Shown: positions 1 through 59,900, numbered from the stretch's first letter. The stretch is 64,000 nt of DNA from Minisyncoccota bacterium (GCA_963668425.1 OY764332.1:259903-323902), one strand, 5' to 3'. Made by a program: numbers and translations. The notes: a model not told the origin generated them from the sequence alone.

Positions 1-972
1 GTGATATCTGACTGGCTACCACAGTCAGCGTGGGTGCTTGATTTCCCCGGTCCGTACAGAGAGTACACACCACCGGAAAGTAATCCCGAGGACTTCGTCG
101 GTCGGGTGTGTATGGAGGTTCCACGTGGTAATGACGACTGGGCTAACGTGGACTACATAGCACCAGTGTCTCTTGCCGTTGTGACCATAACACATGGCCC
201 AAGAAAAGGAGAACAAGTAACTACCGACGAAGGTGGCTACTTCCACTTTCCAAATGTAAAAGGAGACAAGATGTACCTCCGGGTACAGCGGGCATACCTT
301 GAACCAAAAGAGGTTATAGTACACCGCAATAAACCTACCGAACTTCAGCAACTAAGACCGAACGAGGTCTTTGACGCTGAGCATCAAAATCGAGAACGAC
401 CACAAAACGCCCCGGGTATAATTCTAGTAGGGATACGGTGGCCAGATGCAGTCCGCTCCATCCTAGAATCTGAGCCACTCCCGCATGATCTGTTGCTTAC
501 AATAGGTCCTGCGTTCTTTTATGATGATGATAGCGGGTTAATGACTGCTGGGTATTATATAGGGCATGTGGCTTCGGTCTACTATACATTCCCTGAGGAA
601 GAAGGTCGAATTTATCACCCTACCCTCGTCCACGAGCTCGCCCATGCACGGCAACACGCAGTTGCCATTATGCATGGTGACAATAGTTTGTTTGATTGGG
701 AAAAAACCCCTGAGGGTAAAGAGTACCAGGCGGCGTTGGAGAAAGATTTGGCAGAGATTCCGTACAAACACTGGATTGGCACGCTTGATAAGAACGAATA
801 CCTTGGATCAAGCATGCTTGAAAACGCCGCTGAGCTTTACGTTATGTACTGGTATTTTGGGATCGAAGAATTCCTAGGAGGTTCTGAGACACCTGGAGAC
901 GGCGGCATACGAGCAAGAGCCCCCAACCGCTTTAAATGGTGCCAAAAGTATATTAGAGCAAGGCACAACTGA
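1..972 (+). CDS. Zinc metallopeptidase paralog (HExxH motif VHELAHARQH; carboxypeptidase-regulatory-like beta domain), 5' end cut by the window edge
   Basis: The ORF runs from the window start. About 85-90% aa identity to residues about 216-534 of the 7564..9168 peptidase. HELAH zinc-binding motif present. Confidence 0.6.
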   Translation: MISDWLPQSAWVLDFPGPYREYTPPESNPEDFVGRVCMEVPRGNDDWANVDYIAPVSLAVVTITHGPRKGEQVTTDEGGYFHFPNVKGDKMYLRVQRAYLEPKEVIVHRNKPTELQQLRPNEVFDAEHQNRERPQNAPGIILVGIRWPDAVRSILESEPLPHDLLLTIGPAFFYDDDSGLMTAGYYIGHVASVYYTFPEEEGRIYHPTLVHELAHARQHAVAIMHGDNSLFDWEKTPEGKEYQAALEKDLAEIPYKHWIGTLDKNEYLGSSMLENAAELYVMYWYFGIEEFLGGSETPGDGGIRARAPNRFKWCQKYIRARHN

Positions 973-2304: not shown

Positions 2305-5300
2305 TTAGTGCCTTTTGTGACTACACCCACCACTTGAGTGGTTGTGTCCGGTACTGCCATAACATGATCCTGACTTCACTCCATCATGCCAATGACAACA
2401 AGAAGAAGGAGAAGAAGATCTACAACTACCACCTGAACAACCGTTAGAGCAGCTTGACGTACTCCATGCCTTTACACATGAGCCACTTCGTGTTGTACAG
2501 TAACACCGTTTAGTGCCGCCGTTATGACACCATGGTGATTGTGAACCGCAACCGCACTCATTGCCGCTACACGAAACAGATCCTCCCCCCGTAGAACACC
2601 CCGAAGTAGTACAAGAGCGAGAAGAAGGTCCTGAAGGAGGAACCACCACAGGAAGCACCGTTACAGGAGCGACTCTGGGTACCTGCGGTAGAGCTGTCAG
2701 AGGTGCTGGAAGTACAACTACAGGAACTCCAACTTCCGTAGGTTCCGTCGACACGGGTGCAAGAAGGTTTACAACTACCATTAGAGCAACCGTTAGGGCA
2801 GTTTGACGTACTCCATGCCTTTACACATGAACCACTTCGTATTCTACAGTAACACTGTTTCGTTTGAGTGCTGGTATTACACCATGGTGATGTGTTACCG
2901 CAACCGCACTCATTGCCGCTACACGAAACAGATCCTCCCCCCGTAGAACACCCCGAAGTAGTACAAGAGCGAGAAGAAGGTCCTGAACAGGAACCACCAC
3001 AGGAAGCACCGTTACAGGAGCGACTCTGGGTACCTGCGGTAGAGCTGTCAGAGGTGCTGGAAGTACAACTACAGGAACTCCAACTTCCGTAGGTTCCGTC
3101 GACACGGGTGCAAGAAGGTTTACAACTACCATTAGAGCAACCGTTAGGGCAGTTTGACGTACTCCATGCCTTTACACATGAACCACTTCGTATTCTACAG
3201 TAACACTGTTTCGTTTGAGTGCTGGTATTACACCATGGTGATGTGTTACCGCAACCGCACTCATTGCCGCTACACGAAACAGATCCTCCCCCCGTAGAAC
3301 ACCCCGAAGTAGTACAAGAGCGAGAAGAAGGTCCTGAACAGGAACCACCACAGGAAGCACCGTTACAGGAGCGACTCTGGGTACCTGCGGTAGAGCTGTC
3401 AGAGGTGCTGGAAGTACAACTACAGGAACTCCAACTTCCGTAGGTTCCGTCGACACGGGTGCAAGAAGGTTTACAACTGCCAGAAGTACACGTCTGTCCG
3501 CTGGGGCATTTGGTGCCGGCGGGGCAGGATTTTTTGCTTCCAGAGCAGTTAATCTCGGAGCAATCTGCCTTTTCTCCTTTTTTGCAGGTAGCAGAAATAG
3601 GAGAATTACAGGAAACAGAGGAAGGACTCGGGCAAGTCCAGGAAGGAGTACGGTATTGACATAATGCAGAGCAAGAATTACTCTTCTTTGTCCAAGAGCC
3701 GTTGTCGCAGGTGTAGGAACAAGAGCCGTTAGAAACGGAACAAGATCCTACTGATTGACCATGACTGGCTGTAGGTAATGAACAATTTGACACTTTTCCC
3801 CCTTGACAAGATGTACGACTGCAACCGCCATTCCGAGACCAAGAGCCGTTGTTGCATGAATATTGACAGGCACCACTATAGCCATCGGCACACGCCAACC
3901 ATTGTGTAGTATTACCATGTTCGACTGCAGGCAAGGGGCAACCTGACACTGTTTTTGCGGGGCAAGATTTTTTTGAGGTTGCGCCAAAACAAGAATTACT
4001 GTTCTTTTTCCAAAGGCCGTTATTATTGCAGGTGTAGGAACAAGAGCCAGTGGAGACACAAGAACCTGCTGATTGACCATATTTGGTTACCGGCAATGCA
4101 CAACCTGTTATTGTTTTGCCCCCGCAAGATGTTTTTACTGAGGATAAACAAGAATTATTGATCTTTATCCAAGAACCGTTATTGCATCTGTAGTTACAAA
4201 AATATACAGGAGCCACAGAAGATTTCTCAATACAACTTCCAGTTTTGCCGTCACCATGTTGTGCTACCCCTAAAGTGCAATTTGACAGTATCTTGGGAGC
4301 ACAGGATGATTGTGCTTTTGAGTCGCAGTGGTACCGTGAGAATTCACATTCTTGACCAGCAGGACAGTGAGAATGTGTGGTACATTCCTTACATAGTACT
4401 CGATTAAGTATGGTCCTATAACATCCGAGGGCACAAGTTTCAACATCTCTTGACTTAACAACAGTACCATTTTTTTTGCAGTTCTGACGGATGTTTCCAT
4501 TATTAGCACAAAAACGACCACCCCAATTTGAGCAAGAAGCGGGACTAGATTTACACGTACCACTTGAACTTGCACAACCGTTAGAGCAGTTTGTCGTAGT
4601 AAACGCCTTTACACACGTATTGTTTTTTTCAACGCAACTACACGATAACGAATTATTACCCTGACAGAATGGTTGTTTTGGTCCACAGTTGCAGTCATTT
4701 TTTCCATCACGGCAATGACGCTCTGGTTTTTTTTCACACTTACCACCCTTACAAGTACCCTCGGAACACTTCGTACCCGTCACGCTTGGTGGAGGACCAC
4801 TACACTGCACGGGGTTACAGTTACTATCTTGTCCAGTGTTACAAGAGGCATAACCTGTCTTACCGCAGTCAATGGAAGATTTTGAAGGGGTGCTCCAAGA
4901 GGCAGGTTTAGAAGGGCAGATTTTGTTTTTTGTACAATCCTTCGTACCCGTCACGCTTGGTGGAGGACCACTACACTGCACGGGGTTACAGTTACTATCT
5001 TGTCCAGTGTTACAAGAGGCATAACCTGTCTTACCGCAGTCAATGGAAGATTTTGAAGGGAGAATCCAAGAGGCAAGTTTAGAAGGGCAGATTTTCTCTT
5101 TTGTACAATCCTTCGTACCCGTCACACTTGGTGAAGAACCACTACACTGCACGGTGTTACAGTTACTATCTTGTCCAGTGTTACAAGAGGCACTACGTGT
5201 CTTACCGCAGTCAATGGAAGATGCCGAAGGGGTGCTCCAATAGGCAGCTCTAGGAGGACAGGATCTACTTGTACAATCTTTCGTACCCGTCACACTTGGT

Positions 5301-7216
5301 GAAGAACCACTACACTGCACGGTGTTACAGTTACTATCTTGTCCAGTGTTACAAGAGGCACTACGTGTCTTACCGCAGTCAATGGAAGATGCCGAAGGTA
5401 GAGCACTCCAAGAGGCAGATCTGGGAGAACAGGATCTACTTCCACAACCCTTCGTACCCGTTACGCTTGGTGAAGAACCACTGCACTGCACGGTGTTACA
5501 GTTACTATCTTGTCCAGTGTTACAAGAGGCACTACGTGTCTTACCGCAGTCAATGGAAGATGCCGAAGGTAGAGCACTCCAAGAGGCAGATCTAGGAGAA
5601 CAGGATCTACTTCCACAACCCTTCGTACCCGTTACGCTTGGCGAAGAACCACCACACTGCACGGTGTTACCACAGCTATCAACACCAGGAATGCAAGATG
5701 CACTCTTAGTAACACCACAGGCAACAGTAGATGCTGCAGGAAGGTCAGTCCAGGAAGGAGTGCGGGGAGTGGTGTTGCAGGCAGGAGTAACAACACAACG
5801 ATCGCCAGAGCATTTTCCACTTGCACACTTCGTACCCGTTACCGTTGGTGAAGAACCACTACACGACAAACCACCACATGAAGGACTTGGGTCATTGCAA
5901 GTTGCCGTCTCTGTAGTACCACAGGCAATGGAAGACGCCGAAGGTAGAGCACTCCACCCTCCATTCACAGGAGAGCAACCTCCCGTAACACAACTCCCCC
6001 CAGAGCATGTTTGCCCTGCGGCGCACGCTGTACCAGTACCAGTACAGGTTCTAGTAGGTCCAGCACCACTACACCCTATAGCAGAACAGGTAGTAGTTAC
6101 TCCAATACGGCAGTTGTCAGAGGCGGTGTTAGGTATAGCAGTACCACAGGCAACAGAAGAAGCACTTGCACAGTCCGGAGCAGGATACCAAGAAGCAGCA
6201 CGGTAGGTACAGGTTAGACTCGGTACAACACTTACGCTACGATACGCAGACCAAGCAGTGCAGGAATGTTTGCCCTGCGGCGCACGCTGTACCTTGTTCT
6301 TGCGCCTGAGACAAACATAGTAGGTACTACCGTTGGTGAGACCACCATAGGACTTGGATCGGGTTGTTTGTGTAGCGTAGGAGCCACCAGCACAGGTACT
6401 GGAGGTGGTAATCTTTGCTTGGTAGTCGTATAAAGCGATGTTGGTGAAACCAAAGTTGGTGGAACCAAAGTCAGCAATCGCTCCAGTGTTTTGTGGGCGT
6501 GTGGAAAAAAGCGATGGCTGTGGTGCAGTAGTGCAGGAGGTAACACAACTCCCCCCAGAGCATGTTTGCCCTGCGGCACATGAGAGGTACTGCGTCTTTT
6601 TGATGACAGATCCTACTCTGCAATAACGAACACGTCTGTTGTTGTCACTGCAAGTGTAGGCATCGTCCCACGTGCAGGGTATGCACCTCTGCTCTGCCTT
6701 GTTACAGAAAGTGGCACCAGAGCAGTGGCTGTCTTGCGTACACTGCACACATCTGCCGATAGCAGTATTACAAGCCGGAGTTGGTACAGCACAGTCACTG
6801 TCACGTTTACAAGGACTGCCAACACACTTAAGCCCCAAAGTGGTCAAAGCAGCAAACTCACCCACACTACAGCAGTCAGCACAGTCGGTGATATAGGTGC
6901 TTGCTCTGTTGGTAAGCGGAAAGCACGAAAGCCCTGTTGGAGTAATCTTTAGAAACTCCCCAGAATTACAGCACTCAGATGGGGTGTCACATTCATTACT
7001 CCATGTGTCAGTCGGTGCGGCGCAGACGATACCTTGGTGGGTGAGTGTGGCATACTCGTCAGTAGCACAGGTTGTCACCACATCAAGAGGGCTTTGACGA
7101 GTGGTCGGCGAGCGTGCCTCTACCGCCACACTTCCGACGAGTAAAGCATGAATAACCATCGCAATAAGCAACGCCGACAGTAGCACAAACCTAGTAGAAA
7201 AAATAAACAAAGGCAT
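2305..7216 (-). CDS. Giant secreted Cys-rich repeat protein (about 1630 aa if continuous) with thrombospondin-type-1-like (TSP1) repeats. An apparent +1 frameshift near 2625-2640 splits it into ORFs 2567..7216 and 2305..2781
   Basis: N-terminal signal peptide (MPLFIFSTRFVLLSALLIAMVIHALLVGSVAVEA). Repeated W-S-x-W-S...C...C-G-x-x-x-x-R/S-x-C modules, for example SWSSCSCTSSTSDSSTAGTQSRSCNGASCGGSCSGPSSRSC. The C-terminal repeat copy differs from the upstream copies by one inserted base, and the sequence continues in the 2305..2781 frame. Confidence 0.7.
2440..3490. repeat. Three tandem 351-bp intragenic repeats inside the giant gene
   Basis: Shadow ORFs 2821..3132 and 3172..3456 are identical. 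The DNA period is 351 bp. Confidence 0.85.
4775..5900. repeat. Six to seven tandem intragenic repeats of about 160-175 bp encoding a repeated 55-57-aa Cys module
   Basis: The motif cttcgtacccgt(c/t)acgcttggtg(g/a)ag recurs at 4775, 4931, 5101, 5279, 5451, 5626 and 5826. Confidence 0.8.
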
Positions 7217-7311: not shown

Positions 7312-8523
7312 ACACACAAAGAAAATCATTTTTCCCATTGTTCTCTCGGAATGCCGGATTGTCTCACAATAGCGCGCATTGTTCCGACCAGAATATGTCT
7401 GTCTCCATGACTTGGCACCACAACTAAACCGAACTCTCTTTTGTACCCCTTATACATTGAAAATGACTTCCTCTTGTTTTGAGTGTATCTTTGGTGGTGG
7501 TGTACTGGTTTGTATATATGAAAAAAACGACCAACGTGGTTTGTTGGTCGTTTTTGGTAAGGTTCAGTTGTACTTTACTTTAAGATACTTTTGGCACCAT
7601 TTGTAACGGTTTGGAGCTCTTGCTCGTATGCCGCCGTCTCTGGTTGCTTCATGGACTCCCAGGTTTCCTTCCCTCTCAACATCCCAGTAATAAACGTGAA
7701 ACTCAGCGGCGTTTTCAAGCATGTCTGATTCAGTGTGTTCGCTCTTGTCAAGCGTACCGATCCAGTGTTTGTGCGGAATCTCTGCCAAGTCCTTCTCCCA
7801 CGCCGCCTGGTACTCTTTACCCTCAGGGGTTTTTTCCCAATCAAACAAACTATTGTCACCATGCATAATGGCAACTGCGTGTTGCCGTGCATGGGCGAGC
7901 TCGTGGATGAGGACAGGGTGATAAATTTCACCTTCTTCCTCAGGGAATGCATAGTAGACCCCAACCTCATGCGATCCATAAGTCCCAAAAGTCATTCCTT
8001 CCCCATGATCAACGAACGCAGGACCTATTACAAGAAACAGATCATGCGGGAGTGGCTCAGATTCTAGGATGGAGCGGACTGCATCTGGCCACCGTAGCCC
8101 TACTAGAATCATACCCGGGGCGTTTTGTGGTTGTTCTCGATTTTGATACTCAGCGTCAAAGACCTCGTTCGGTCTTAGTTGCTGAAGTTCGGTAGGACGA
8201 GAGCGATAGGCGATTACCTCTTTTGGTTCAAGGTATGCCCGCTGTACCCGGAGGTACATTTTGTCTCCTTTTACATTTGGAAAGTGGAAGTAGCCACCTT
8301 CGTCGGTAGTTACTTGTTCTTCTTTTCTTGGACCATGTGTTATGGTCACAAGAGCGTTCTGCACTGGTGCTATGTAGTCCCCGCCAACCCATTCGTCATT
8401 ACTAGCATCTGGAACCTTCATACACACCCGACCGACAAAGTCCTCGGGATTACTCTCTGGTGGTGCGTACTCTCTGTACGGACCGGGGAAATCAAGCACC
8501 CACGCTGACTGTGGCAGCCAGTC
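7312..8523. repeat. Right arm of the about 1.2-kb inverted repeat (partner 1..1229)
   Basis: See the left arm. Confidence 0.8.
7521..7558 (-). terminator. Rho-independent terminator downstream of the peptidase gene (minus strand)
   Basis: Hairpin cgaccaac...gttggtcg followed by a T-run on the minus strand. Counterpart of the 987..1021 terminator. Confidence 0.6.
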
Positions 8524-9168
8524 AGATGCCACAGTGCCGTTATAGTATCCGTGGGTGATCGGCTCTTCTACTAGACCTGGTAGCCCTATCGTATCGGACT
8601 GTGTTACCTGCAGTTTCTTTGGGTGATGGTAAAACTTTGTGAGCGTGTTACCATCAAGGTCTGCTGATAATTTGCCGACCATGATGGACACCGCTTTGTC
8701 TGGCATTACGTACCTACAAATGTAGTCGTCTGTGCCAGAACCTAATGGCTTTGCATAGCCATGGATCAATTTTTCTTTGGGCGAGGTAACCTTGAAGCGT
8801 TCCATCGGGCTACCTCTTTCTTTGTACCAAAGCACCGGTCTACCGCTACCCTCGCCTGTAACAATATGCTCCATTGGCTCAGAGAAAACGATCTTAATAA
8901 AAACTGTTTCTCCTGCTTCAGCCGATTGTATCTCCTTGGTGAGTTTCCAGTCACTGTAGTAGCCGACTGATATTACCCTCGGAGTACCTATCGCCACGTT
9001 CATTGGAGCACTTGGAGCGTTTTCTGGAGTTCTTAGAGAGCCCAGCAAACCAAGTGTTTCATTATCGTCCAATACCAGTCCGTCTGGCTCCTCACCACAA
9101 CCCATGAGCAGAGCAATGGTTAGCACTGCAATTGCAATGTTCGCCACATGTTTCAATACATGTTTCAA
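7564..9168 (-). CDS. Lipoprotein zinc metallopeptidase (HExxH) with a carboxypeptidase-regulatory-like domain, 534 aa
   Basis: Lipobox signal (ALLMGCGEE). HELAHARQH motif. Beta-sandwich TITHGPRKEEQVTTDEGGYFHFPNVKGDKMY resembles the CarboxypepD_reg-like fold. Confidence 0.7.
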   Translation of the reverse strand: MKHVLKHVANIAIAVLTIALLMGCGEEPDGLVLDDNETLGLLGSLRTPENAPSAPMNVAIGTPRVISVGYYSDWKLTKEIQSAEAGETVFIKIVFSEPMEHIVTGEGSGRPVLWYKERGSPMERFKVTSPKEKLIHGYAKPLGSGTDDYICRYVMPDKAVSIMVGKLSADLDGNTLTKFYHHPKKLQVTQSDTIGLPGLVEEPITHGYYNGTVASDWLPQSAWVLDFPGPYREYAPPESNPEDFVGRVCMKVPDASNDEWVGGDYIAPVQNALVTITHGPRKEEQVTTDEGGYFHFPNVKGDKMYLRVQRAYLEPKEVIAYRSRPTELQQLRPNEVFDAEYQNREQPQNAPGMILVGLRWPDAVRSILESEPLPHDLFLVIGPAFVDHGEGMTFGTYGSHEVGVYYAFPEEEGEIYHPVLIHELAHARQHAVAIMHGDNSLFDWEKTPEGKEYQAAWEKDLAEIPHKHWIGTLDKSEHTESDMLENAAEFHVYYWDVEREGNLGVHEATRDGGIRARAPNRYKWCQKYLKVKYN

Positions 9169-9970: not shown

Positions 9971-10693
9971 TCATGATATTATACGCAGTATTTCTTCGCT
10001 ATCACTATACACTTTAGTGTACATCTTTTTTATATAGTCATCAACATTTTGTACATTAAACTCAAACTTCTCCTGCATCGCTTCGTTTCCTTCAGAAACT
10101 GTCTTCAAGACAAAATGAATCTTGATTTTTTCTTCAAATGTATTTTTAATTTCATTCACCACCTCCCGAGAACCGATAAACTGCCTGGCAAATGATTCCT
10201 TTGGTACTACTCTTCCTTCCACTTGTTCTCGTTTTTTTACAAATTTCCACGCACTCTTCGGTTCTTGATACACAAAAAACACTTCCACCCGGCACCCTCT
10301 TTTTAAAGATCGTTCTACATTACTTCTCGCTTTCTTAAAATTTGAAAATGTTGAATCTAACACAAAGTTATACCCCTTCTTGAAAATATGATCCAAGACC
10401 TTTTCCACTCCCAAGGATGCCGCTCCGTGATATTTCTCCGCATTATTCCCCGAGTATCCAGGTAACAACGACTTAATCACATCTTGGTCAATGTGAACAA
10501 AGGAGGTGTCAGAAATCTCTTCTATCAGACGTCTCGCTGTCTCAGTCTTTCCTGCACCTGGAGAACCAGACATAAACAACGCATTCTTTGTTTTCACTGA
10601 CTCACAATCCTTGCATACTTCTTCTATAATCTGATGAGCATTCTTTTTGACCCAATCCTTCAACGATTCTTCTGCTTGTTCCATGCTATCCAT
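9971..10693 (-). CDS. Zeta-toxin-like P-loop kinase (zeta toxin / AAA_33 superfamily). The true start is likely the Met at 10693; the 10786 start overlaps a peptidase-gene remnant
   Basis: Walker A motif FMSGSPGAGKTE near the N-terminus. Size and layout typical of zeta/PezT-type UNAG kinases. No epsilon-like antitoxin ORF nearby. Confidence 0.6.
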   Translation of the reverse strand: MDSMEQAEESLKDWVKKNAHQIIEEVCKDCESVKTKNALFMSGSPGAGKTETARRLIEEISDTSFVHIDQDVIKSLLPGYSGNNAEKYHGAASLGVEKVLDHIFKKGYNFVLDSTFSNFKKARSNVERSLKRGCRVEVFFVYQEPKSAWKFVKKREQVEGRVVPKESFARQFIGSREVVNEIKNTFEEKIKIHFVLKTVSEGNEAMQEKFEFNVQNVDDYIKKMYTKVYSDSEEILRIIS

Positions 10694-10803
10694 TATCCCA
10701 TACTCCTTATAACTCTCATACCATCTCGTGATCTGAATCAAACATGCTTGAAAACGCGGCTGAGTTTTGTGCCATGCATTGGACATTACAATGGAAAAAT
10801 AGT

Positions 10804-10930
10804 GCGCAAGGAATTTGTAAAAATACCCTTATTTCATAGGATATTTTGTCAAAATTCATTCCTTGTATATTGTAATTGACAAGGAATGCTACTTACTTGT
10901 ATATCGTAATATACAAGGAATTATTTTAGG
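10804..10930. promoter_or_regulatory. Conserved divergent promoter/operator cassette with the palindrome TTCCTTGTATA-N-TGACAAGGAA; copy 1, between the zeta-like kinase gene and Fic-1
   Basis: An about 130-bp stretch near-identical to 20677..20838. It contains the inverted repeat ttccttgtatattgtaattgacaaggaa plus a degenerate second copy. Confidence 0.55.
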
Positions 10931-11006
10931 TAAGGATATATTGCACTTTACAAAAAACAGATTTACGGCATTGTTTTAGTTTATATTGCGAGTTTTTGCC
11001 TAACAT

Positions 11007-11017
11007 TGTGATATAAT
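11007..11017 (+). promoter_or_regulatory. Extended -10 promoter element TGTGATATAAT upstream of Fic-1
   Basis: TGn plus TATAAT. The same element sits upstream of Fic-2 at 21035..21045. Confidence 0.4.
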
Positions 11018-11037
11018 ATTATTATGAGAAAAACATA

Positions 11038-12177
11038 GTGGGAGAACGCATATTTGCGTTTTTGGACATAATTGGATATAATTGGACATATATACCTATA
11101 TCCATATGTATGCAAGAAGATAGATTTATTAAACGAATCCCCATCACTTCTGAGATTATGCAAAAAATCTCTCGCATTGATGCTTTTAAGGGTTTTTGGG
11201 AGGGTGGACTGCGTTTGCATCCACGTGTTTTGACACAGCTGAAGAAGTGGGTTATCATCACCTCAACAGGTGCATCAACGCGTATTGAGGGGTCAAAAAT
11301 GAGCGATGCAGACGTTACAATGTTTCTACGTGGTTTACGTGTAAAGTCACCAAAAAATAGGGATGAGCAAGAGGTTGCGGGGTATGCTGACCTTGCCGCA
11401 AGAGTATTTGACAACTATACAATATTACAACTGACAGAAGGATATATTTTGCAGTTTCATAAGATTTTATTGCAGTTCTCAAAAAAAGATCAAAAGCATT
11501 TTGGGAAGTATAAAGCATCAGACAACATTGTCATTGCCCGCACTGATGATGGTGAGGAGAAGGTTCTTTTCAGACCAACTCAACCATACTTAGTAAAAAA
11601 AGAGATGGATGATGTGCTTGAGTGGACACGATCAACGCTTGCATCTGAAACACTGCACCCTATTCTTGTTATCTGTAACTTCATTTTTGAATTTCTTGCG
11701 ATTCACCCGTTTGTAGACGGTAATGGACGACTTTCTCGTATTTTAACAAATATGCTCCTGTTGCAGGCAGGATATGCTTATGTACCGTATGTTTCTTTAG
11801 AAGAAATTATTGAAAATCATCAGGTAGCATACTATAGGTCACTACGGGAAACACAAGTCAAGCATAAAACAGGGCATGAAGATATCGCTCCGTGGGTACA
11901 CTTTATGCTTGATATACTACTTGAACAATCTGAAAAAGCACAATCTGTTATGCAATCCGAGCATCCGGAGAAAATGCTATCAGAAAGCCAAACGACTATA
12001 TATACTCTGTTCACCGCCGACGAAGAGCTTGCCATTGCTGATATTGCTATGAAACTTCGTGATACTATTCCTCGGACAACTATAAAGCAAGCTGTGTTCC
12101 GCCTTATGCGACTTAATTTGTTGGAGCGAATCGGGAGCGGGAGAGGGACGCGATACCGTCGTATTATTCAACCATAG
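11038..12177 (+). CDS. Fic family protein (AMPylation-type Fic motif HPFVDGNGRLSR) with a C-terminal winged-helix region
   Basis: Canonical HPFx[DE]GNGR motif. N-terminal IEGS region as in the Fic_N domain. GTG start at 11038. A homologous ATG at 11024 is followed by a stop after 4 codons. Confidence 0.8.
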   Translation: MGERIFAFLDIIGYNWTYIPISICMQEDRFIKRIPITSEIMQKISRIDAFKGFWEGGLRLHPRVLTQLKKWVIITSTGASTRIEGSKMSDADVTMFLRGLRVKSPKNRDEQEVAGYADLAARVFDNYTILQLTEGYILQFHKILLQFSKKDQKHFGKYKASDNIVIARTDDGEEKVLFRPTQPYLVKKEMDDVLEWTRSTLASETLHPILVICNFIFEFLAIHPFVDGNGRLSRILTNMLLLQAGYAYVPYVSLEEIIENHQVAYYRSLRETQVKHKTGHEDIAPWVHFMLDILLEQSEKAQSVMQSEHPEKMLSESQTTIYTLFTADEELAIADIAMKLRDTIPRTTIKQAVFRLMRLNLLERIGSGRGTRYRRIIQP

Positions 12178-15437: not shown

Positions 15438-18400
15438 CTATTTTTTAAACATGTTGATCAGGTATCTCACTACCCTGCTGAACAGATTGAGATGATCTTC
15501 ATACTCTTCCTCATTGATACGATTCACCTCATCGGTGCTTGCAGTCCATTCAGCCACAAACGTAACACTTTCTTCACCATTATGATATGGATGCAAGCAA
15601 TCATTATAATATATCTCCGGCACCTGATTGCAAAATTTGTACAGATCTGTCTCATCTTTCACCTTACCCCCGACATTCCTCCCGATGACCTTCCAGCATC
15701 TACTCCTATATCTTTCGTTCAATTTTCCGCAAAATTCCTTTGTGTTCTCTATCCCATAATAAGTAAAATTCTGATCAATTGCCGGTTCGTAGCATCGCAT
15801 ATGATATTCTTCGCTAAATTGATTACAAATGAAAATGGTTTTGTCTATGAGGTTTCCTGAAATACTGTCATCCAACAACACATCCTGGGTACTTGCATAG
15901 ATAGACTGTGCGCCAAGGTTATATACACAGTCCTGCACATAGCCGTCTTCAACCTTGTTGCACATATCAATCATTTTTTTTAAATCCCATTGTAGTGCAT
16001 ACAACCAATACGATACTTGAGATTGATAGCAGAGTGTTTTATACCGCTCATTAAGATTGTTACATGGAGCAAAAGGGTCTTCAGTGCGAAACCCATTATC
16101 AATTTCATCATTTGTTTTCCTGCCTTGTGCACCACTTACATTTTCCATAAATACTCCACTATAGCAATCCCATTTTCGATGCTCCCTCTCCAACAAATCA
16201 CACTGTTCTAATGGCTTATACAGTCCATAACTGTAATTCATTACCAATGCGTGACCTGATCCGTGATAGCATGCAGTTTTTGCATATGGTGGAGTGTCCG
16301 GCATATTACTACAGGTATTTTCTATGAACTCGGCGGGGCTAGGAACAACAGCAAGACCGGCTTCAAAAAATCCATGATGGCAACCGTAGTCAAAATCAAT
16401 TGGACACTTGAGAAATGCTTCTCCGGTTAACCCAAATTTCTCTCCTGTTGATCTTCCTATAGTGTGTGTTATTTGATGTGCAGATGACGGCTCAAACAAA
16501 AACTCTCCCTCCCATGTCATGTCATGTAGTGCCCTGATGGACTCTTTCGGACCTGATCCAAAAACTAGTTGGGTAACAATTTCTTCTGCACAGAGATATC
16601 CTGGCTCATATTCACACAACGATGCGTAGCAACCTGCTCTCCCCACATCCAAAGCTGCACACTCCTGCGCACTATCAAATAAATTTTTGTTAAACTTTTC
16701 TTCCTGCAGGTGTTGCTGCCAATCCTGTGCAGATGCCGGTAAAGTAACTGCGCTTACCGCACTCTTAACTGCATCTAAAATACTTTGTGTGATTTTTTTA
16801 AATAAAGAAACCAGGTTTCTCTCCTTCTCTATTTTTGTTACTGGTAATTCTCCATATACATCTTCACCATGCTGAATATCTGCACTTACGTTATTATCAA
16901 GTCGATATCCAAACAAACATTCATTTCTATACTCATCCGGCACATCTACACACTTTTCTGTTTTCTCCTCTTCATGCACAACCATATCCTGTAACCTTCT
17001 ACCCATCTCTCGATAACAATTTCGTTCATACTTTTTATCAATTTTTACACAAAACTCAGATGTTTTTTTTGCTCCGTAGAATATGAAGGTTTGATTTATT
17101 GCCCAGAGATAACATGTCTCACGGTACTTTTCTGGAAAATGATTGCATAGATATATTGTTTTATCTATAAAGTTTCCTTCTATGTGTGGCATCAGTTTTT
17201 CTTGAATCTCTTTATACATCCCATACCCTCCAACGCCATGTGCACATGATTCTGCCTCTTCACCGGCGTCTAGACATGTATCAACGACACCTTGAATATC
17301 ATAGTCAAAATACCATGCTAAATATGGCAAATGTGTTTCATAACATACATCTCGATATCCGTACCCCTCTCCATCCTCCACCAATGTGTCGCATGGAGCG
17401 TGTGGATTATTTTCATCAAAACTGTTATTTTCTGTATATATCTCTTGTATCCTTCCTGATACAAAAGCGTCTACGTTTTCCATGGTCACGCCGGAGAAAC
17501 ATGTAAATGGCTGTGGTAACGCCTTGCAAATATCCAGTGCCTCATAGAGATCATAGCTTGTGTTCATGAGTATGCCGTGACCAGCACCATGATAACAATT
17601 CACCTTATCAAGTGACGGCTGATCGGGCAAGGTTTCACATATCTGTTTTACTGCCTCAGCAGGTGATTGTGCCTCTACAAGCGCAACCTCAAGAAACCCA
17701 TGGTGGCAACCTGAATCAAATGATGTTGGACATCTCAGAAATGCTTCTCCTGAACCATTGAACCTTTTTGCTGTTTTTCTCCCAACAACATGTGCAAGTC
17801 CATGCCCCTCATCTGCCGAAGAGAATGAAAAGGGGGTTGATGGTATAATTTCTCTGAGTATCTGCATACCTAACTCCGGACCATTGTGTTCAACTGCTGT
17901 TTCTACTATTTTCTCTGCACACAAATATCCAGGTTCATATTCACACAGAGAAGCGTAGCATTCCGCACGACCATCCTGCTGGTTGATGCACCGCTCAATT
18001 GCGAAAAAACTGGTATCAGGTGCATCAACAGAATCCTTGACACTTTGTGCAGAAACAGGTCCAGCAAATAGAGCGGAGAGGTTTCTGAAAAGGGTAACAA
18101 AAAAATCTTTAACCTTTATGAGTAAGTAGTCATTCTGATCAACATCATCTGCCATCGCCTTATTTACAGCAGTGGTGGCACTTTCCTCAAAATCTGAAAT
18201 AACAACCTCAGCATGCCTTGTATACGGATCTAAACAATCCTGCTGATATATGGTAGGGATCTCGGCACATGCTGACTGTTTCACCTCCTCACTCCCTAAA
18301 TGATTTAAATATGAGCCGGCTTGTTTGAAACATGCTGCTCTGTGTCTCATTTCAATGCTACCACAAAACGTGCTAACTCGATGCATGGAGGGGTAATCAA

Positions 18401-19436
18401 AGTTCAACAACGCACCAACTAGCGGAATATAGCACGATGCCTTGTAGCCATCTGGGAATTCACTACACAAAAAAATAACTTTTTCCATGTATGGACGATC
18501 GGTAATACCAAAGCTATCAAAAACAATATTGGTTCGCTGTGCATTCTGCAACATTAAGCCGATACCAGAGAGACAATCAGCAGTATGATTTCCCGCCTGT
18601 AAACATATCGCGACCAATCCATCAAATGAAGTGGTATGCTCATGCATCAGATACCCATAGTGCTCCATATAGCATGTCGGTCTGAAATCTGCATCAAGCG
18701 CGTTGCATGGATAGAGAGGGTCGTCCTTGCGAAAGTTATTGCTCTTCTCTTCCCATGCTCTCGTTGGCCACGCATTTTCCATGAACACACCACTCAGGCA
18801 CACCGTGTGCCACCGATCAGGAACAGCGGTACAGGCATCTATACTGGCATCAAGATTATAATTTTCATTCATGAGGAACACATGTCCAGCGCCGTGATAA
18901 CAGTACGACTTCTCTTTATCTGAAGTCGTTTCTGACGGCATGTCTTCACATATACTGATTGCGACAGTCACTGGGTCATCAACCTTCACTAACGTATCTT
19001 CAAAAAACCCGTGATAACAGCCATCATTAAAATCATGTGGGCATCGTAGAAAGTTCTCCCCCGAAGAGCCAAATACTCGTGAAGTCGTCCGCCCAATAAC
19101 ATGCGACAGTAAGTGCCCGTCGGTAGTAATGGCAAATGCCGGGCTCGCCATAATATCATGTAGCACTTCCATTGCTCGTGCAGGGCCGGCAACCTCAACC
19201 GCCACATCCGACAACTCCTCCGCGCACAAATATCCAGGTTCATAGGTACACAAATCCGCATAGCATGTGTCGTTCCAAGTATCCTGCAAACACACTTCAA
19301 TTCCTTCGAGCATCGCTTCTCGTGCATCACCACTGACCTCCTCTGTCGCCGAAACATTCTGCATAGTAAGTATCACAAGAAGTAAAAAAATGGGCAGAAT
19401 AAAACCAAAAAACAAGAATATTTTGCGAACAAGCAT
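15438..19436 (-). CDS. Giant secreted Cys/His-rich protein with three tandem M modules and no cupredoxin-like domain, 1332 aa
   Basis: Signal/TM N-terminus. Three about 400-aa repeats, each with CYA(D/S)LC(T/E)YEPGYLCAE, GH-x-L-x-H-x-x-GR, GE(A/N)FL(K/R)CP-x-(D/S)FD-x-GC-x-HGF(F/L)E, CYHG(A/S)GH, GVFMEN and PCN motifs. Confidence 0.65.
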   Translation of the reverse strand: MLVRKIFLFFGFILPIFLLLVILTMQNVSATEEVSGDAREAMLEGIEVCLQDTWNDTCYADLCTYEPGYLCAEELSDVAVEVAGPARAMEVLHDIMASPAFAITTDGHLLSHVIGRTTSRVFGSSGENFLRCPHDFNDGCYHGFFEDTLVKVDDPVTVAISICEDMPSETTSDKEKSYCYHGAGHVFLMNENYNLDASIDACTAVPDRWHTVCLSGVFMENAWPTRAWEEKSNNFRKDDPLYPCNALDADFRPTCYMEHYGYLMHEHTTSFDGLVAICLQAGNHTADCLSGIGLMLQNAQRTNIVFDSFGITDRPYMEKVIFLCSEFPDGYKASCYIPLVGALLNFDYPSMHRVSTFCGSIEMRHRAACFKQAGSYLNHLGSEEVKQSACAEIPTIYQQDCLDPYTRHAEVVISDFEESATTAVNKAMADDVDQNDYLLIKVKDFFVTLFRNLSALFAGPVSAQSVKDSVDAPDTSFFAIERCINQQDGRAECYASLCEYEPGYLCAEKIVETAVEHNGPELGMQILREIIPSTPFSFSSADEGHGLAHVVGRKTAKRFNGSGEAFLRCPTSFDSGCHHGFLEVALVEAQSPAEAVKQICETLPDQPSLDKVNCYHGAGHGILMNTSYDLYEALDICKALPQPFTCFSGVTMENVDAFVSGRIQEIYTENNSFDENNPHAPCDTLVEDGEGYGYRDVCYETHLPYLAWYFDYDIQGVVDTCLDAGEEAESCAHGVGGYGMYKEIQEKLMPHIEGNFIDKTIYLCNHFPEKYRETCYLWAINQTFIFYGAKKTSEFCVKIDKKYERNCYREMGRRLQDMVVHEEEKTEKCVDVPDEYRNECLFGYRLDNNVSADIQHGEDVYGELPVTKIEKERNLVSLFKKITQSILDAVKSAVSAVTLPASAQDWQQHLQEEKFNKNLFDSAQECAALDVGRAGCYASLCEYEPGYLCAEEIVTQLVFGSGPKESIRALHDMTWEGEFLFEPSSAHQITHTIGRSTGEKFGLTGEAFLKCPIDFDYGCHHGFFEAGLAVVPSPAEFIENTCSNMPDTPPYAKTACYHGSGHALVMNYSYGLYKPLEQCDLLEREHRKWDCYSGVFMENVSGAQGRKTNDEIDNGFRTEDPFAPCNNLNERYKTLCYQSQVSYWLYALQWDLKKMIDMCNKVEDGYVQDCVYNLGAQSIYASTQDVLLDDSISGNLIDKTIFICNQFSEEYHMRCYEPAIDQNFTYYGIENTKEFCGKLNERYRSRCWKVIGRNVGGKVKDETDLYKFCNQVPEIYYNDCLHPYHNGEESVTFVAEWTASTDEVNRINEEEYEDHLNLFSRVVRYLINMFKK

Positions 19437-19766: not shown

Positions 19767-20483
19767 CTAGAGGACATCCGGGCCTCTTTCGCTTTGCAAT
19801 GATACCGCTGGTATAGAAACACATAAGCGACTCATATCACAGACACTTTTAGCGCGTTGAATAATATCAAGCATCTGTATTGGCAAGCAGTATCTTGAAT
19901 CTACTTGCACAACATGCGTGGGGAGAATTTTTGGTAAATTAATTTGATGCCTGTGTGAAAATATATCTTCTTTAGTGCGTGAAAGAGTTTTCTCAGTAAG
20001 ATATTTTCTCAAATTATCTGAATCTTTTTTGTTTTCAGCATAGCGGTCTATAATCAACTCTATCGGCTTTCCGAATGTAAATAATAATTCTTTTGCTGAT
20101 ATATACTCCAATGCTTTCTTTAAAACAAAGTTCCTGAACCAAAGAGGGTTTCTTTGGTACTTACCATCTCTGAGATATGGACCGATATATTTTGTTTTAT
20201 CTATCATCATTTCATAAAATTGCACATCGTTCAGATATGGTATTTTTTCTACAAGGTTTTTTAAATTTTTTCCACTGAGTTTTTTCAATTCTTTTTTATG
20301 ACCGTTAAAAAATTTAAACCCTGCAATGAGGTATTCTATATCTCCAACCCCTTGTTCAGTCGCTATGCCTATATTTATAGTAAAATGCTGACTTGATGAC
20401 CGATGTGCAACTGGATCACCGGCATCACCGCTCTCATCTATAAACACAAAAAGTTTTTTGGCTTTACTGTAATCCATATTCAT
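19767..20483 (-). CDS. DUF3800-like protein (N-terminal FIDESGD motif), 238 aa
   Basis: KLFVFIDESGDAGD near the N-terminus matches the DUF3800 (PF12686) signature as recalled from memory. No other recognizable domain. Confidence 0.55.
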   Translation of the reverse strand: MNMDYSKAKKLFVFIDESGDAGDPVAHRSSSQHFTINIGIATEQGVGDIEYLIAGFKFFNGHKKELKKLSGKNLKNLVEKIPYLNDVQFYEMMIDKTKYIGPYLRDGKYQRNPLWFRNFVLKKALEYISAKELLFTFGKPIELIIDRYAENKKDSDNLRKYLTEKTLSRTKEDIFSHRHQINLPKILPTHVVQVDSRYCLPIQMLDIIQRAKSVCDMSRLCVSIPAVSLQSERGPDVL

Positions 20484-20676
20484 TCATTATACTTTGCTCG
20501 TTTTTTTGTGACACGCACTAGTATACCTCCTGAAACTTAATACTTTTTGTTTGAACAGTAGGAGTGCGTTATTCCGAAAGATTGCCATATTATACCCGCT
20601 TTTTGTCAAAAAAGCGGGTACAAAATTTGTAATACATAAAAAAACGGGTATACCATGTGTACTGTAGAAGACAAAT

Positions 20677-20838
20677 GCGCAAGGAATTTGTAAAAAACTC
20701 CTTATTTTATAAGATATTTTACCAAAATTTATTCCTTGTATACTGTAATTGACAAGGAATGCTATTTCCTTGTATATTGCAACTGACAAGGAATACTACT
20801 TCCTTGTATAGTGCAATTGACAAGGAATTATTTTAGGC
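20677..20838. promoter_or_regulatory. Divergent promoter/operator cassette, copy 2 (three TTCCTTGTATA-N-TGACAAGGAA palindromes), between the DUF3800 gene and Fic-2
   Basis: Near-identical to 10804..10930 but with an expanded palindrome array at about 20732, 20766 and 20800. Confidence 0.55.
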
Positions 20839-20888
20839 AGAGATCTATTATACTTTACAAAAAGTAGATATGTTGTATTATCTTGGTT

Positions 20889-21010
20889 TATATTATTAGT
20901 TTTGCTTAAAAGTTGCAATATGAAAATTTATATTATTAGTTTTGCTTAAAAGTTGCAATATGGAAATTTATATTATTAGTTTTGCTTAAAAGTTGCAACA
21001 TGGAAATGTA
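20889..21010. repeat. Three tandem 40-bp repeats (tattattagttttgcttaaaagttgcaatatg(a/g)aaattta)
   Basis: Direct repeats with the block tattattagt at 20891, 20931 and 20971. Confidence 0.8.
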
Positions 21011-21050
21011 TATTGCAAGTATTTATCTAAAATTGTGATATAATAGTACT

Positions 21051-37022: not shown

Positions 37023-37484
37023 TTATAACTCAGATACAAGATGTAGTGCTTCCTGTGCGTGTCCTTGTGCTTGCACACTCTTCCAGTGTTTTACTACTAC
37101 ACCGCTTTCATCTATTAGCACTGTGCTACGGATAATACCCATGGATTTTTTGCCGAATTTGTTTTTTTCTCCCCATGCGCCGTATGCTTCAAGCATTTTG
37201 CCATCTTCATCACTTAATAAATCAATGCTGAGTCCGTGCTTACTACAAAACTGTTTGTGTGATTCAACGGTATCTTTGGAGATACCAAATATACTAGTGT
37301 TGTACTTTTCAAATTCTTCACGTAATGCTGAAAACTCCAACCCTTCGGTTGTACATCCGGGAGTATCGTCTTTTGGATAAAAATATAACACCGCTCGCTT
37401 CCCTACTAAGTTGGTAAGTGACACCATCTCTCCGTTTTGATTTCTTACTGAAAATGTTGGTGCCCTTTCGCCTTCTGTGATCAT
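37023..37484 (-). CDS. bcp: Thiol peroxidase, Bcp-type peroxiredoxin
   Basis: Motif YFYPKDDTPGCTTE (peroxidatic Cys in the T/S-x-x-C context). Start probably MITEGERAPTF. Confidence 0.8.
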   Translation of the reverse strand: MITEGERAPTFSVRNQNGEMVSLTNLVGKRAVLYFYPKDDTPGCTTEGLEFSALREEFEKYNTSIFGISKDTVESHKQFCSKHGLSIDLLSDEDGKMLEAYGAWGEKNKFGKKSMGIIRSTVLIDESGVVVKHWKSVQAQGHAQEALHLVSEL

Positions 37485-37563
37485 TGATGAAAGTGTAGCA
37501 TATTTTCTTGTGCATGTTTGTTGTGCTTGCATGAGAGGTATTTTTACCCTTTATAATGAGGTT

Positions 37564-59841: not shown

Positions 59842-59900
59842 CTATGTACTGACGCCCTTCCGTCAGTGTTTTGTTTATTAGAGACAACTCTGATGGTGGA

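What the first reader, a model, noticed from the sequence alone, without database searches (positions are those of the whole stretch)
2305..7216. Two paralogous giant secreted Cys-rich proteins built from thrombospondin-type-1-like repeats
Genes 2305..7216(-) and 37564..40293(+) encode signal-peptide proteins made almost entirely of Cys-rich modules. These match the TSP1 pattern W-S-x-W-S...C-S-x-T/S-C-G...R-x-R-x-C (for example GGWSTWSYCRCTPSTSDASTVGEQTRRCNNPSPSCGG and IWSDWSRCGCTYDKSDSATSGVRSRTCIGG). They also share long domains (CTTAPQPSLFSTRPQ...YYVCLRRKNK; SCS(D/G)NECGC(S/G)SQSP(Y/W)C...RCYCTTR(N/S)GSCVKAWST) and a CCHWH C-terminal motif. TSP1 repeats are a eukaryotic extracellular adhesion module and are rare in bacteria. 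In a reduced-genome organism, large TSP1-like surface proteins are candidates for host or partner-cell attachment. The genes carry perfect intragenic tandem repeats (3 x 351 bp, and 6-7 x about 165 bp), so repeat-number variation or phase variation is plausible.
Basis: partly seen in the sequence, partly recalled or inferred. Interest (0 to 1): 0.75.

Follow-up and report, generated by a model that had tools for sequence, protein, structure and literature searches.

The report
Divergent thrombospondin-type repeats in CPR proteins
A tiny-genome (about 0.7 Mb) Kaiserbacteria-like bacterium encodes two large secreted cysteine-rich mosaic proteins that contain real but unusual thrombospondin type-1 repeats which standard domain databases miss; they are probably used to stick to a partner cell, and one of the two genes is broken by a frameshift.

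Summary
The sequences are there, but with corrections. Gene B (37564..40293, +, 909 aa) is intact. "Gene A" is not one ORF. ORF 2567..7216(-) (1549 aa) stops early because copy 3 of the 351-bp repeat carries CC in place of G (+1) at 2636-2637. The last ~110 codons, down to 2305, are out of frame.

Pfam TSP_1 and NCBIfam find nothing. A profile of seven 55-61-aa modules from this family does match thrombospondin-1 TSRs (1LSL, E 6e-11). All 29 PDB hits are TSR proteins, and a reversed-sequence control finds none. Nearly all of the 109 hits among 5.8 billion proteins carry PF00090. For an AlphaFold model (pLDDT 79), the first 44 Foldseek hits are all TSR or TSR-like folds.

So there are six true, divergent TSRs, three per gene. 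They have CxCT plus a ~10-residue insert where canonical TSRs have CSxTCG. They cover only 10% of A and 18% of B. A further third of A consists of derived "W..LP" modules whose TSR kinship is only probable. The rest is FN3-like, a family-specific 10-Cys module, orphan repeats, SPSY linkers and a His/Cys motif.

The variant occurs only in a few related CPR genomes, where it is also fused to subtilisins. Most likely role: secreted binding or adhesion proteins (inferred). It is a new variant of a known domain.

The parts
2567..7216 (-). Gene A, the open part: 1549-aa ORF ending at a premature stop caused by the frameshift
2305..2637 (-). Out-of-frame continuation of gene A: the rest of TSR 3, the last 10-Cys 'CGC' module and the CCHWH/His-Cys motif. 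It is in frame with ORF 2305..2781. The lesion is CC for G at 2636-2637.
7115..7216 (-). A: N-terminal signal-like segment (aa 1-34). Orthologues keep a V-E-A / A-D-A site in front of R/K/Q.
   Evidence: read from the sequence; no predictor was run
6536..7114 (-). A: conserved Cys-rich N-terminal domain (aa 35-227). It defines the A-type orthologues. No PDB or Pfam match.
6218..6535 (-). A: FN3-like module (CTTAPQPS...GLTNGSTYYVCLRRKNK...)
5789..5977 (-). A: type-2 'GGWSxLP...CNDPSPSCGG...SPTVTGTKC' module, probably TSR-derived
4727..5788 (-). A: six 57-aa 'SWSxLPSASSIDCGKT...SPSVTGTK' modules. TRF finds 171 bp x 5.3 at 92% over 4769..5670.
3662..4303 (-). A: four ~55-aa 'C..LP..HG..SC..SCxYxCxNGxW..SC' repeats. 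They are orphans and only faintly resemble CCP/sushi.
2416..3469 (-). A: 351-bp tandem array of three units, each a strict TSR plus a 10-Cys 'CGC' module. Copies 1 and 2 are identical. Copy 3 carries the +1 lesion.
3293..3466 (-). A: strict divergent TSR 1 (aa 1251-1308)
2942..3115 (-). A: strict divergent TSR 2 (aa 1368-1425)
2590..2764 (-). A: strict divergent TSR 3, interrupted by the frameshift
37564..40293 (+). Gene B: intact 909-aa ORF, from the ATG that is codon 30 of ORF 37477..40293
38980..39162 (+). B: strict divergent TSR 1 (WSTWS...RRCNNPSPSCGG...). This is the module that was modelled.
39343..39510 (+). B: strict divergent TSR 2
39514..39678 (+). B: strict divergent TSR 3
37717..37884 (+). 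B: 10-Cys 'CGC' module, copy 1. Copy 2 is at 38788..38955.
37954..38751 (+). B: FN3-like module, a type-3 'W..aP..ASASSVACG' module, then a second FN3-like module
39958..40077 (+). B: His/Cys-rich motif (SSCCHWH...EHNH...CNHVSHNN) flanked by SPxY linkers made of 12-, 15- and 24-nt tandem repeats
7564..9168 (-). Neighbouring lipoprotein with a CarboxypepD_reg-like domain and an HExxH motif. A paralogue lies at 1..972(+). The pairing with the A-type gene is kept in three other genomes.

Best explanation
The window comes from a Kaiserbacteria-like CPR/Patescibacteria bacterium with a genome of about 0.7 Mb. The two genes are lineage-specific paralogues. They encode exported, disulfide-rich mosaic proteins assembled from small modules by repeated tandem duplication and shuffling.

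Six modules (three in A, three in B) are genuine but divergent thrombospondin type-1 repeats. They keep W-x-x-W, the (Q/R)-x-R-x-C strand, the C-x-N-P-x-P-x-x-G-G-x-x-C-x-G turn and six Cys. The canonical C-S-x-T-C-G-x-G is replaced by C-x-C-T plus a ~10-residue Ser/Thr/Asp-rich insert, which is why Pfam misses them. Nine further modules in A (seven type-2 and 57-aa modules plus two type-3) and one type-3 module in B look like further-derived descendants.

Inferred function: after Sec export and oxidative folding, the proteins form elongated multi-module binders. These would contact the surface of the partner or host cell, or its glycans. The same module set is fused to secreted subtilisins in sister genomes, which suggests a targeting or binding role. 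The architecture appears to change quickly through recombination between near-identical DNA repeats. In this assembly, gene A has lost its last ~110 codons to a +1 lesion.

Shown: the anatomy, the paralogy, the TSR homology, the narrow distribution, and the frameshift as it stands in this assembly. Inferred: export, disulfide bonding, binding or adhesion, and which partner is bound.
For: TSR homology:
- The 7-module profile against PDB gives thrombospondin-1 TSRs (1LSL, 3R6B) at E 6e-11 over positions 6-60 of 61. All 29 hits are TSR proteins. A 5-module profile gave 16 of 16 TSR hits.
- The reversed-sequence control finds no TSR; its best E is 5.
- Against 5.8 billion proteins there are 109 hits, nearly all with precomputed PF00090.
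- An exhaustive search of 1.84 billion representatives gives 2096 hits. Every hit whose Pfam content was checked and that lacks the variant module is a TSP_1 protein.
- The AF2 model has pLDDT 78.9, and Foldseek ranks 1-44 are all TSR or TSR-like, with probability up to 0.98.

Bacterial origin and lineage:
- Both genes sit among CPR housekeeping genes.
- The contig is 696,550 bp, and its topoisomerase clusters at 90% with Candidatus Kaiserbacteria.
- Orthologues lie on circular 647-kb and 662-kb genomes, one of them titled Candidatus Paceibacterota.

Module shuffling:
- Orthologues P0001, P0133, P0003 and the L003 ORF share the N-terminal domain but have very different module arrays.
- There are 351/351-identical DNA copies inside A.

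Binding or targeting role:
- The same modules follow subtilisin S8 + PPC in P0002, P0134, P0141 and P0225.
- In other prokaryote-type proteins, canonical TSRs are attached to a type IV pilin-like N-terminus, cohesin or VWA domains.

Likely source:
- The best-scoring canonical single modules come largely from such prokaryote-type proteins at 39-48 bits, against 72-84 bits for the CPR variant.
Against: - Pfam TSP_1 and NCBIfam give no hit, even on isolated modules.
- The canonical CSxTCG motif is absent.
- The Foldseek E-values are weak (0.018 or worse) and TM-scores are 0.3-0.48.
- Model coordinates could not be inspected, so the disulfide pairing and the Trp-Arg ladder are unverified.
- No cell-wall or membrane anchor other than the N-terminal segment is present, so surface retention is unexplained.
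- The strict modules are not markedly basic, so heparin-like binding cannot be assumed.
- Gene A is disrupted here.
- No expression, localisation or host data exist.
Confidence: 0.6

Rival explanations
1. The proteins are structural components of the bacterium's own envelope or extracellular matrix, not adhesins for a partner cell. They would form a glycosylated, disulfide-cross-linked coat or stalk, with SPxY linkers acting like extensin.
For: - Ser/Thr/Pro/Tyr-rich linkers and very high Ser content.
- No recognisable ligand-binding domain other than the TSR and FN3-like modules.
- A second, unrelated large Cys-rich secreted protein lies nearby at 15438..19436.
Against: - No anchor or S-layer homology motif is present.
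- The architecture differs strongly between close genomes, which is unusual for a core structural layer.
- The same modules are appended to secreted proteases.
Confidence: 0.2
2. Gene A is a decaying pseudogene, and the family is evolving neutrally after duplication. On this reading the repeats and the frameshift are genomic debris rather than a working system.
For: - A +1 lesion at 2636-2637 sits inside otherwise identical repeat sequence and is not at a slippery tract.
- The exact products of A and B are not found in the protein collection, although neighbouring genes of the same contig are.
Against: - 1549 codons remain open with all modules intact.
- B is intact.
- Orthologues in four other genomes are intact, with conserved Cys positions and a conserved neighbour gene.
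- The lesion could be an assembly error within a perfect repeat.
Confidence: 0.15
3. The TSRs were acquired recently from a eukaryotic host and act as molecular mimics of host extracellular-matrix proteins. This would make them a 'eukaryote-like protein' of a symbiont.
For: - TSRs are overwhelmingly eukaryotic.
- Named top hits include Nematostella proteins.
- The contig names of related genomes look like long-read assemblies. That such assemblies come from host-associated samples is my own guess.
Against: - The nearest canonical modules are mostly from prokaryote-type proteins: pilin-like, cohesin, VWA, and bacterial contigs.
- The CPR modules are too divergent for Pfam to recognise.
- Base composition at the genes (GC 0.47-0.48) is only slightly above the window average.
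- The sample origin could not be established.
Confidence: 0.1
4. The TSP1 resemblance is a chance pattern in low-complexity Cys/Ser-rich sequence.
For: - There is no Pfam or NCBIfam hit.
- Composition is strongly biased.
Against: - The profile hits are exclusively TSRs at E 6e-11, and the reversed control is empty.
- There are 2096 database hits, and the ones checked are TSP_1 proteins.
- The fold search returns only TSRs.
Confidence: 0.03

Closest known systems
Thrombospondin type-1 repeat (TSR; Pfam TSP_1 PF00090), for example human thrombospondin-1 TSR2-3 (PDB 1LSL, 3R6B)
   Same: - Module length of about 55-60 aa.
- N-terminal (D/N)GGW-S-x-W-S.
- A (Q/R)-x-R-x-C strand.
- The C-x-N-P-x-P-x-x-G-G-x-x-C-x-G turn.
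- Six Cys in the same order.
- Profile E 6e-11, and only TSR folds retrieved.
   Different: - C-S-x-T-C-G-x-G is replaced by C-x-C-T plus a ~10-residue S/T/D-rich insert.
- Usually one Arg fewer in the central strand.
- Some copies carry an extra Cys pair.
- Not detected by PF00090.
- The host organism is a CPR bacterium.
Canonical TSP_1 repeats in prokaryote-type proteins (P0135 pilin-like + 15-17 TSRs; P0252 cohesin + TSRs; P0148/P0188 VWA + TSRs; P0015 in a MAG)
   Same: - Bacterial context.
- Tandem arrays on exported proteins.
- A shared 'GTQTRTCTNPAPxxGG..CSG' signature.
- They are the highest-scoring canonical modules against the CPR profile.
   Different: - Those modules are recognised by Pfam and keep CSxTCG.
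- The window's modules form a separate, tighter group: 72-84 bits against 48 or fewer.
- The window's modules are combined with family-specific Cys modules.
Apicomplexan TSR adhesins (TRAP, MIC2)
   Same: A microbe that depends on another cell displays TSRs on an exported protein. PDB TRAP and MIC2 TSRs are among the profile and fold hits.
   Different: - TRAP and MIC2 have a transmembrane tail linked to a gliding motor, plus a VWA domain.
- No such anchor or VWA domain is present here.
- The adhesion role here is inferred only.
ADAMTS proteases (metalloprotease + TSR ancillary domains)
   Same: A secreted protease followed by TSR arrays that target it. The sister proteins P0002, P0134, P0141 and P0225 have subtilisin S8 + PPC followed by the same TSR variant.
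   Different: - The catalytic class differs: serine S8 rather than reprolysin.
- The window's two proteins have no catalytic domain.
- The resemblance is by analogy, not shown to be by descent.

Membership tests
Thrombospondin type-1 repeat (Pfam TSP_1, PF00090) | Match to the Pfam PF00090 model at or above its gathering score | tested here: not met
   There is no TSP_1 hit for the whole proteins at E<=1 or for isolated modules at E<=10. Orthologue P0133, with nine such modules, also has no Pfam family.
Thrombospondin type-1 repeat (Pfam TSP_1, PF00090) | Significant sequence-profile similarity to experimentally solved TSRs over the whole module | tested here: met
   The 7-module profile gives 1LSL and 3R6B at E 6e-11 over positions 6-60 of 61, and 29 of 29 hits are TSR proteins. 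The reversed control gives no TSR.
Thrombospondin type-1 repeat (Pfam TSP_1, PF00090) | W-x-x-W (Trp strand) and R-x-R / x-R (Arg strand) motifs | tested here: met
   B has WSTWS, WSSWS and WSDWS. A has YGSWS, with the first Trp replaced by Tyr. All copies have G-x-(Q/R)-x-R-x-C.
Thrombospondin type-1 repeat (Pfam TSP_1, PF00090) | Six conserved Cys including the C-S-x-(S/T)-C-G motif | tested here: not met
   Six Cys are present in the same order, but the first two are C-x-C, followed by T and a ~10-residue insert, instead of C-S-x-T-C-G.
Thrombospondin type-1 repeat (Pfam TSP_1, PF00090) | Elongated three-stranded TSR fold | tested here: inconclusive
   The AF2 model has pLDDT 78.9. Foldseek PDB ranks 1-44 are all TSR or TSR-like, with probability up to 0.98, but E is 0.018 or worse, TM is 0.3-0.48 and rmsd is 4-6 A.
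Thrombospondin type-1 repeat (Pfam TSP_1, PF00090) | Disulfide connectivity and stacked Trp/Arg layers | not testable with these tools
TSR membership of the type-2 and 57-aa 'W..LP' modules of gene A | Detectable homology to TSRs by sequence or fold | tested here: inconclusive
   - hhalign against the strict modules: 70.6%, E 3.8e-5, 42 columns.
- No PDB sequence hit.
- AF2 pLDDT 90.1.
- The Foldseek top 20 are all TSR proteins, but at E 0.4-8.
Fibronectin type III | Pfam fn3 match or significant similarity to FN3 repeats | tested here: inconclusive
   There is no fn3 hit in Pfam. BLASTP of B against P0004, a protein with precomputed PF00041, aligns the '...LTNGSTYYVCLRRKN..G' strands repeatedly, with a best E of 3e-7.
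Sushi/CCP repeat (for the four ~55-aa repeats at 3662..4303) | Four-Cys CCP consensus with significant profile match | tested here: not met
   Only sub-threshold PDB hits were found: HpARI at E 0.2 and factor H at E 1.6. The repeats have six Cys per unit. No homologues were found.
Phase-variable surface genes (slipped-strand switching) | Frameshift located in a homopolymer or short-unit repeat tract whose length is not a multiple of 3 | tested here: not met
   The lesion is CC for G in a non-repetitive context. The short tandem repeats in B have periods of 12, 15 and 24 nt, all in frame.
Sortase-anchored (LPXTG) surface adhesins | C-terminal LPXTG motif followed by a hydrophobic segment and a basic tail | tested here: not met
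   There is no C-terminal LPXTG or hydrophobic segment. The only hydrophobic window is the N-terminal one.

The most novel reading that the evidence does not exclude
The bacterium uses extracellular-matrix-like TSR proteins to attach to a eukaryotic host, which would be a CPR-eukaryote symbiosis mediated by an animal-type adhesion module. Alternatively, and equally unexcluded, TSRs are an old bacterial surface module and this CPR variant, together with the pilin-, cohesin- and protease-linked bacterial TSRs, marks the pool from which eukaryotic TSRs arose.
Probability: 0.15. Interest if true: 0.8.

Novelty: new variant of a known kind. Interest (0 to 1): 0.55.

Why it matters
How CPR/Patescibacteria recognise and hold on to their partner cells is largely unknown, and their large surface proteins are mostly unannotated.

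This work shows that a clade of Kaiserbacteria-like genomes has expanded a cryptic form of the thrombospondin type-1 repeat. The variant is invisible to Pfam. It appears in giant mosaic proteins and on secreted subtilisins.

That gives concrete, testable candidates for the contact machinery. It also gives a profile with which such "dark" TSRs can be found elsewhere.

The result adds to evidence that TSRs, usually treated as an animal and apicomplexan adhesion module, are used by bacteria in several architectures, which bears on where the module originated.

No paper in the searched library links thrombospondin repeats with CPR lineages.

Tried and rejected
- **Pfam and NCBIfam.** Scans of the whole proteins and of nine excised modules gave no meaningful family.
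- **PDB profile searches for the other modules.** The 10-Cys 'CGC' module gave only evasins at E 0.35. The N-terminal domain gave nothing. The four ~55-aa repeats gave only sub-threshold CCP-containing hits.
- **Homologue search with the four-repeat alignment.** Nothing was found.
- **Two-domain alignment (TSR + CGC) for structure prediction.** MAFFT split the TSR fragments, so the alignment was discarded.
- **Search for the same species, to compare repeat number and the frameshift.** An exact 28-mer in JGI metagenomes gave 0 hits. A search of JGI metagenomes with the N-terminal domain gave 0 relatives.
- **Exact look-up of the window's trigger factor.** This was meant to recover the source record, but the protein was not on record in that index.
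- **Literature searches.** Searches for TSRs in bacteria or CPR, and for SRP109090, found nothing relevant.
- **Eukaryotic contamination.** Rejected because of the bacterial gene context and because orthologues lie on circular CPR genomes.
- **Classical phase variation.** Rejected because the lesion is not in a slippery tract.

Full report
**What is at the coordinates**

On the minus strand there is a 1549-aa ORF at 2567..7216 and, in another frame, a 158-aa ORF at 2305..2781. The tail of that second ORF...SCSGNECGCGSQSPWC...CVKAWST...CCHWH..., is the homologue of what follows the thrombospondin-like module in the two upstream repeat copies.

Reading the DNA shows why. The 351-bp units start at 3469, 3118 and 2767. 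Units 1 and 2 are identical at 351/351. Unit 3 is identical for 130 nt and then has TCCTCCTTCAGG where the others have TCCTGTTCAGG, that is, CC for G at 2636-2637. This +1 change leads to a stop at 2567-2569.

Repairing it gives a 1636-aa product. So "gene 2305..7216" is a frameshifted gene in this assembly. The lesion is not in a homopolymer or short repeat, so it is a mutation or an assembly error within a perfect repeat. It is not a classical phase-variation switch.

Gene B is intact: 909 aa from the ATG at 37564. Both proteins have 10-12% Cys and 18-22% Ser. Each has a single N-terminal hydrophobic segment and no C-terminal anchor. The paralogy is clear, with BLASTP E 2e-111.

TRF finds the 351-bp array (3.1 copies, 96%) and a 171-bp array (5.3 copies, 92%) in A. 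In B it finds only in-frame repeats of 12, 15 or 24 nt, which encode SPxY linkers.

**The organism**

The window carries bacterial RNase P RNA, nine tRNAs and ordinary housekeeping genes.

Exact copies of its trigger factor and topoisomerase I are on a 696,550-bp contig. The topoisomerase falls in a 90% cluster with a protein named Candidatus Kaiserbacteria and with one from a 661,662-bp chromosome. That chromosome's record is titled Candidatus Paceibacterota.

This is a CPR/Patescibacteria bacterium.

**Are the modules thrombospondin type-1 repeats?**

Pfam gives no TSP_1 hit for the proteins or for excised modules, and NCBIfam gives nothing. Profiles built from the family itself tell a different story:

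- A 5-module profile retrieved 16 PDB sequences, all of them TSR proteins.
- After adding modules from relatives, a 7-module profile gave thrombospondin-1 TSRs at E 6e-11 over essentially the full module. There were 29 hits and all were TSR proteins: ADAMTS13, C6, C7, UNC5, properdin, BAI1, TRAP and MIC2.
- The same seven sequences reversed, which keeps the composition, gave no TSR and a best E of 5.
- Against 5.8 billion proteins the profile found 109 hits, almost all carrying precomputed PF00090.
- An exhaustive HMMER pass over 1.84 billion representatives found 2096 hits, 520 of them at E<=1e-10.
- Every representative I scanned that lacks the variant module is a Pfam TSP_1 protein.
- An AlphaFold model of B's first module, built only with the seven family sequences, had pLDDT 78.9. 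Its first 44 Foldseek PDB matches are all TSRs or the TSR-like pleiotrophin. The statistics are weak, as expected for a 60-residue rod: E 0.018 or worse and TM 0.3-0.48.

I conclude that six modules are true TSRs: A at 3293..3466, 2942..3115 and 2590..2764, and B at 38980..39162, 39343..39510 and 39514..39678.

They are a distinct variant. W-x-x-W, (Q/R)-x-R-x-C, C-x-N-P-x-P-x-x-G-G-x-x-C-x-G and six ordered Cys are kept. C-S-x-T-C-G-x-G is replaced by C-x-C-T plus a ~10-residue S/T/D-rich insert. That explains the Pfam miss. P0133, an orthologue with nine such modules, also has no Pfam family at all.

**What the rest of the proteins is**

Strict TSRs make up only about 10% of A and 18% of B.

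A also has one "GGWSxLP...CNDPSPSCGG...SPTVTGTKC" module, six 57-aa relatives of it (the 171-bp array), and two looser "type-3" modules. B has one type-3 module.

- A 13-sequence alignment of these modules matches the strict-TSR profile by hhalign at 70.6% probability (E 3.8e-5, 42 columns).
- It finds no TSR in the PDB by sequence.
- It folds confidently, with pLDDT 90.1.
- Its model ranks only TSR proteins in Foldseek, but non-significantly.

I treat these modules as probable TSR derivatives, not proven ones.

The CTTAPQPS...YYVCLRRKNK domain aligns repeatedly with FN3 repeats of a protein annotated PF00041, with a best E of 3e-7. It is FN3-like.

The remaining parts have no detectable relatives outside the family:

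- the SCSGNECGC...CVKAWST module, with 10 invariant Cys;
- the 193-aa N-terminal domain;
- the four ~55-aa repeats at 3662..4303.

A His/Cys-rich motif (CCHWH...HNH...C.H) recurs at A's C-terminus, inside B, and in P0003, P0133 and P0134. Its role is unexplained. A metal site is a guess.

**Distribution and evolution**

A whole-protein search found only five relatives. Two lie on one circular 647-kb contig and one on the 662-kb chromosome. A scan of GTDB species representatives added one more orthologue (L003). JGI metagenomes held none.

Among the best 150 representatives, the C-x-C-T variant occurs only in P0133, P0134, P0141 and P0225, and also in P0001 and P0002. These score 72-84 bits per module, against 48 or fewer for any canonical TSR.

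The A-type orthologues (A, P0001, P0133, P0003 and the L003 ORF) share the N-terminal domain at 51-72% identity. Their arrays differ widely: 0 to 9 strict TSRs, 1 to 6 CGC modules, and different linkers. Together with the 100%-identical internal DNA copies, this shows rapid gain, loss and shuffling of modules.

P0002, P0134, P0141 and P0225 carry the same modules behind a subtilisin S8 + PPC unit.

The best-scoring canonical modules come largely from prokaryote-type proteins:

- a type IV pilin-like protein with 15-17 Pfam TSP_1 repeats;
- cohesin-linked and VWA-linked TSRs;
- short TSP_1 proteins on bacterial contigs.

These are documented. TSRs are therefore not unique to this lineage among bacteria. 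The CPR variant more likely derives from a bacterial TSR pool than from a recent eukaryotic donor. That last point is an inference; no tree was built.

**Context**

The A-type gene is paired in all four genomes with a lipoprotein gene that encodes a CarboxypepD_reg-like domain and an HExxH motif. In the window, paralogues of this gene flank A on both sides, at 7564..9168(-) and 1..972(+).

**How it most likely works**

The following steps are inferred. The proteins are exported by Sec; orthologues conserve a V-E-A or A-D-A site before the mature N-terminus. They are oxidatively folded into chains of small disulfide-locked modules. They then act as extended binders for a partner-cell surface or its glycans.

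The TSRs, and the fusion of the same module set to secreted proteases, point to a targeting or binding role. Recombination among repeats would diversify the binding array.

Rival readings cannot be excluded, and they are scored separately above. The main ones are a self-envelope or matrix role, decay of gene A, and host mimicry after transfer from a eukaryote. The chance-pattern reading is refuted.

**Novelty**

The TSR is a known domain, and canonical copies in bacteria are already annotated by Pfam. Three things appear to be undescribed:

- this cryptic C-x-C-T variant;
- its expansion in giant mosaic proteins and subtilisins of a Kaiserbacteria-like CPR clade;
- the accompanying orphan Cys modules.

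No paper in the searched library links thrombospondin repeats with CPR lineages. I rate it a new variant of a known kind, of moderate to good interest.

Noticed in passing
window 7564..9168(-) and 1..972(+); L001 8695..10560(-), L002 10620..12239(-), L003 11044..12330(-): Paralogous lipoprotein genes (lipobox LMGC, CarboxypepD_reg-like domain, HExxH motif) flank gene A. The pairing of an A-type giant gene with this lipoprotein is kept in three other genomes. It may be a processing metalloprotease or a partner protein.
   Followed up: partly
window 15438..19436(-): A 1332-aa protein with an N-terminal signal-like segment, built from three ~430-aa Cys-rich repeats. It has no Pfam match and is unrelated to the TSR proteins.
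   Followed up: no
window 9971..12177, 19767..22220, 60286..60996: A cluster of toxin or defence-type genes lies between the two TSR genes: a zeta toxin, two Fic/DOC proteins and a DUF3800 protein. Further along there is a SocA/Panacea antitoxin with an HTH domain.
   Followed up: no
window 2308..2406(-), 39958..40077(+); also P0003, P0133, P0134: A recurrent His/Cys-rich motif (CCHWH...C...HNH...C.H) sits at or near the C-termini of family members. It may be a metal-binding site. No database match was found.
   Followed up: no
window 59769..59842(+): A tRNA-Ile with anticodon UAU, which is uncommon in bacteria.
   Followed up: no
window 7325..7455(-): A short ORF in the spacer upstream of gene A (MYKGYKREFGLVVVPSHGDRHILVGTMRAIVRQSGIPREQWEK) looks to me like the C-terminal part of a HicA-type toxin. 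This is a reading by eye only.
   Followed up: no
L005 5001..7960 (MAG GCA_964491365.1, contig CAZBFU010000001.1): A 107-aa protein with one canonical Pfam TSP_1 repeat and an LPTAG-like hydrophobic tail lies directly upstream of PMT-family and GT87 glycosyltransferase genes. This hints that bacterial TSRs may be glycosylated.
   Followed up: no
P0135, P0252, P0248, P0148, P0188 (database proteins): Canonical Pfam TSP_1 arrays are fused to a type IV pilin-like N-terminal methylation motif, a cohesin domain, a cytochrome c domain or VWA domains. TSRs are therefore used in several prokaryote-type architectures.
   Followed up: partly
L003 1..7700: The left part of contig CAZURU010000022.1, upstream of the A-type orthologue, carries genes typical of larger genomes (amidohydrolase, enolase-superfamily, ABC exporter) and a run of X in one ORF. 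The MAG contig may be chimeric.
   Followed up: no
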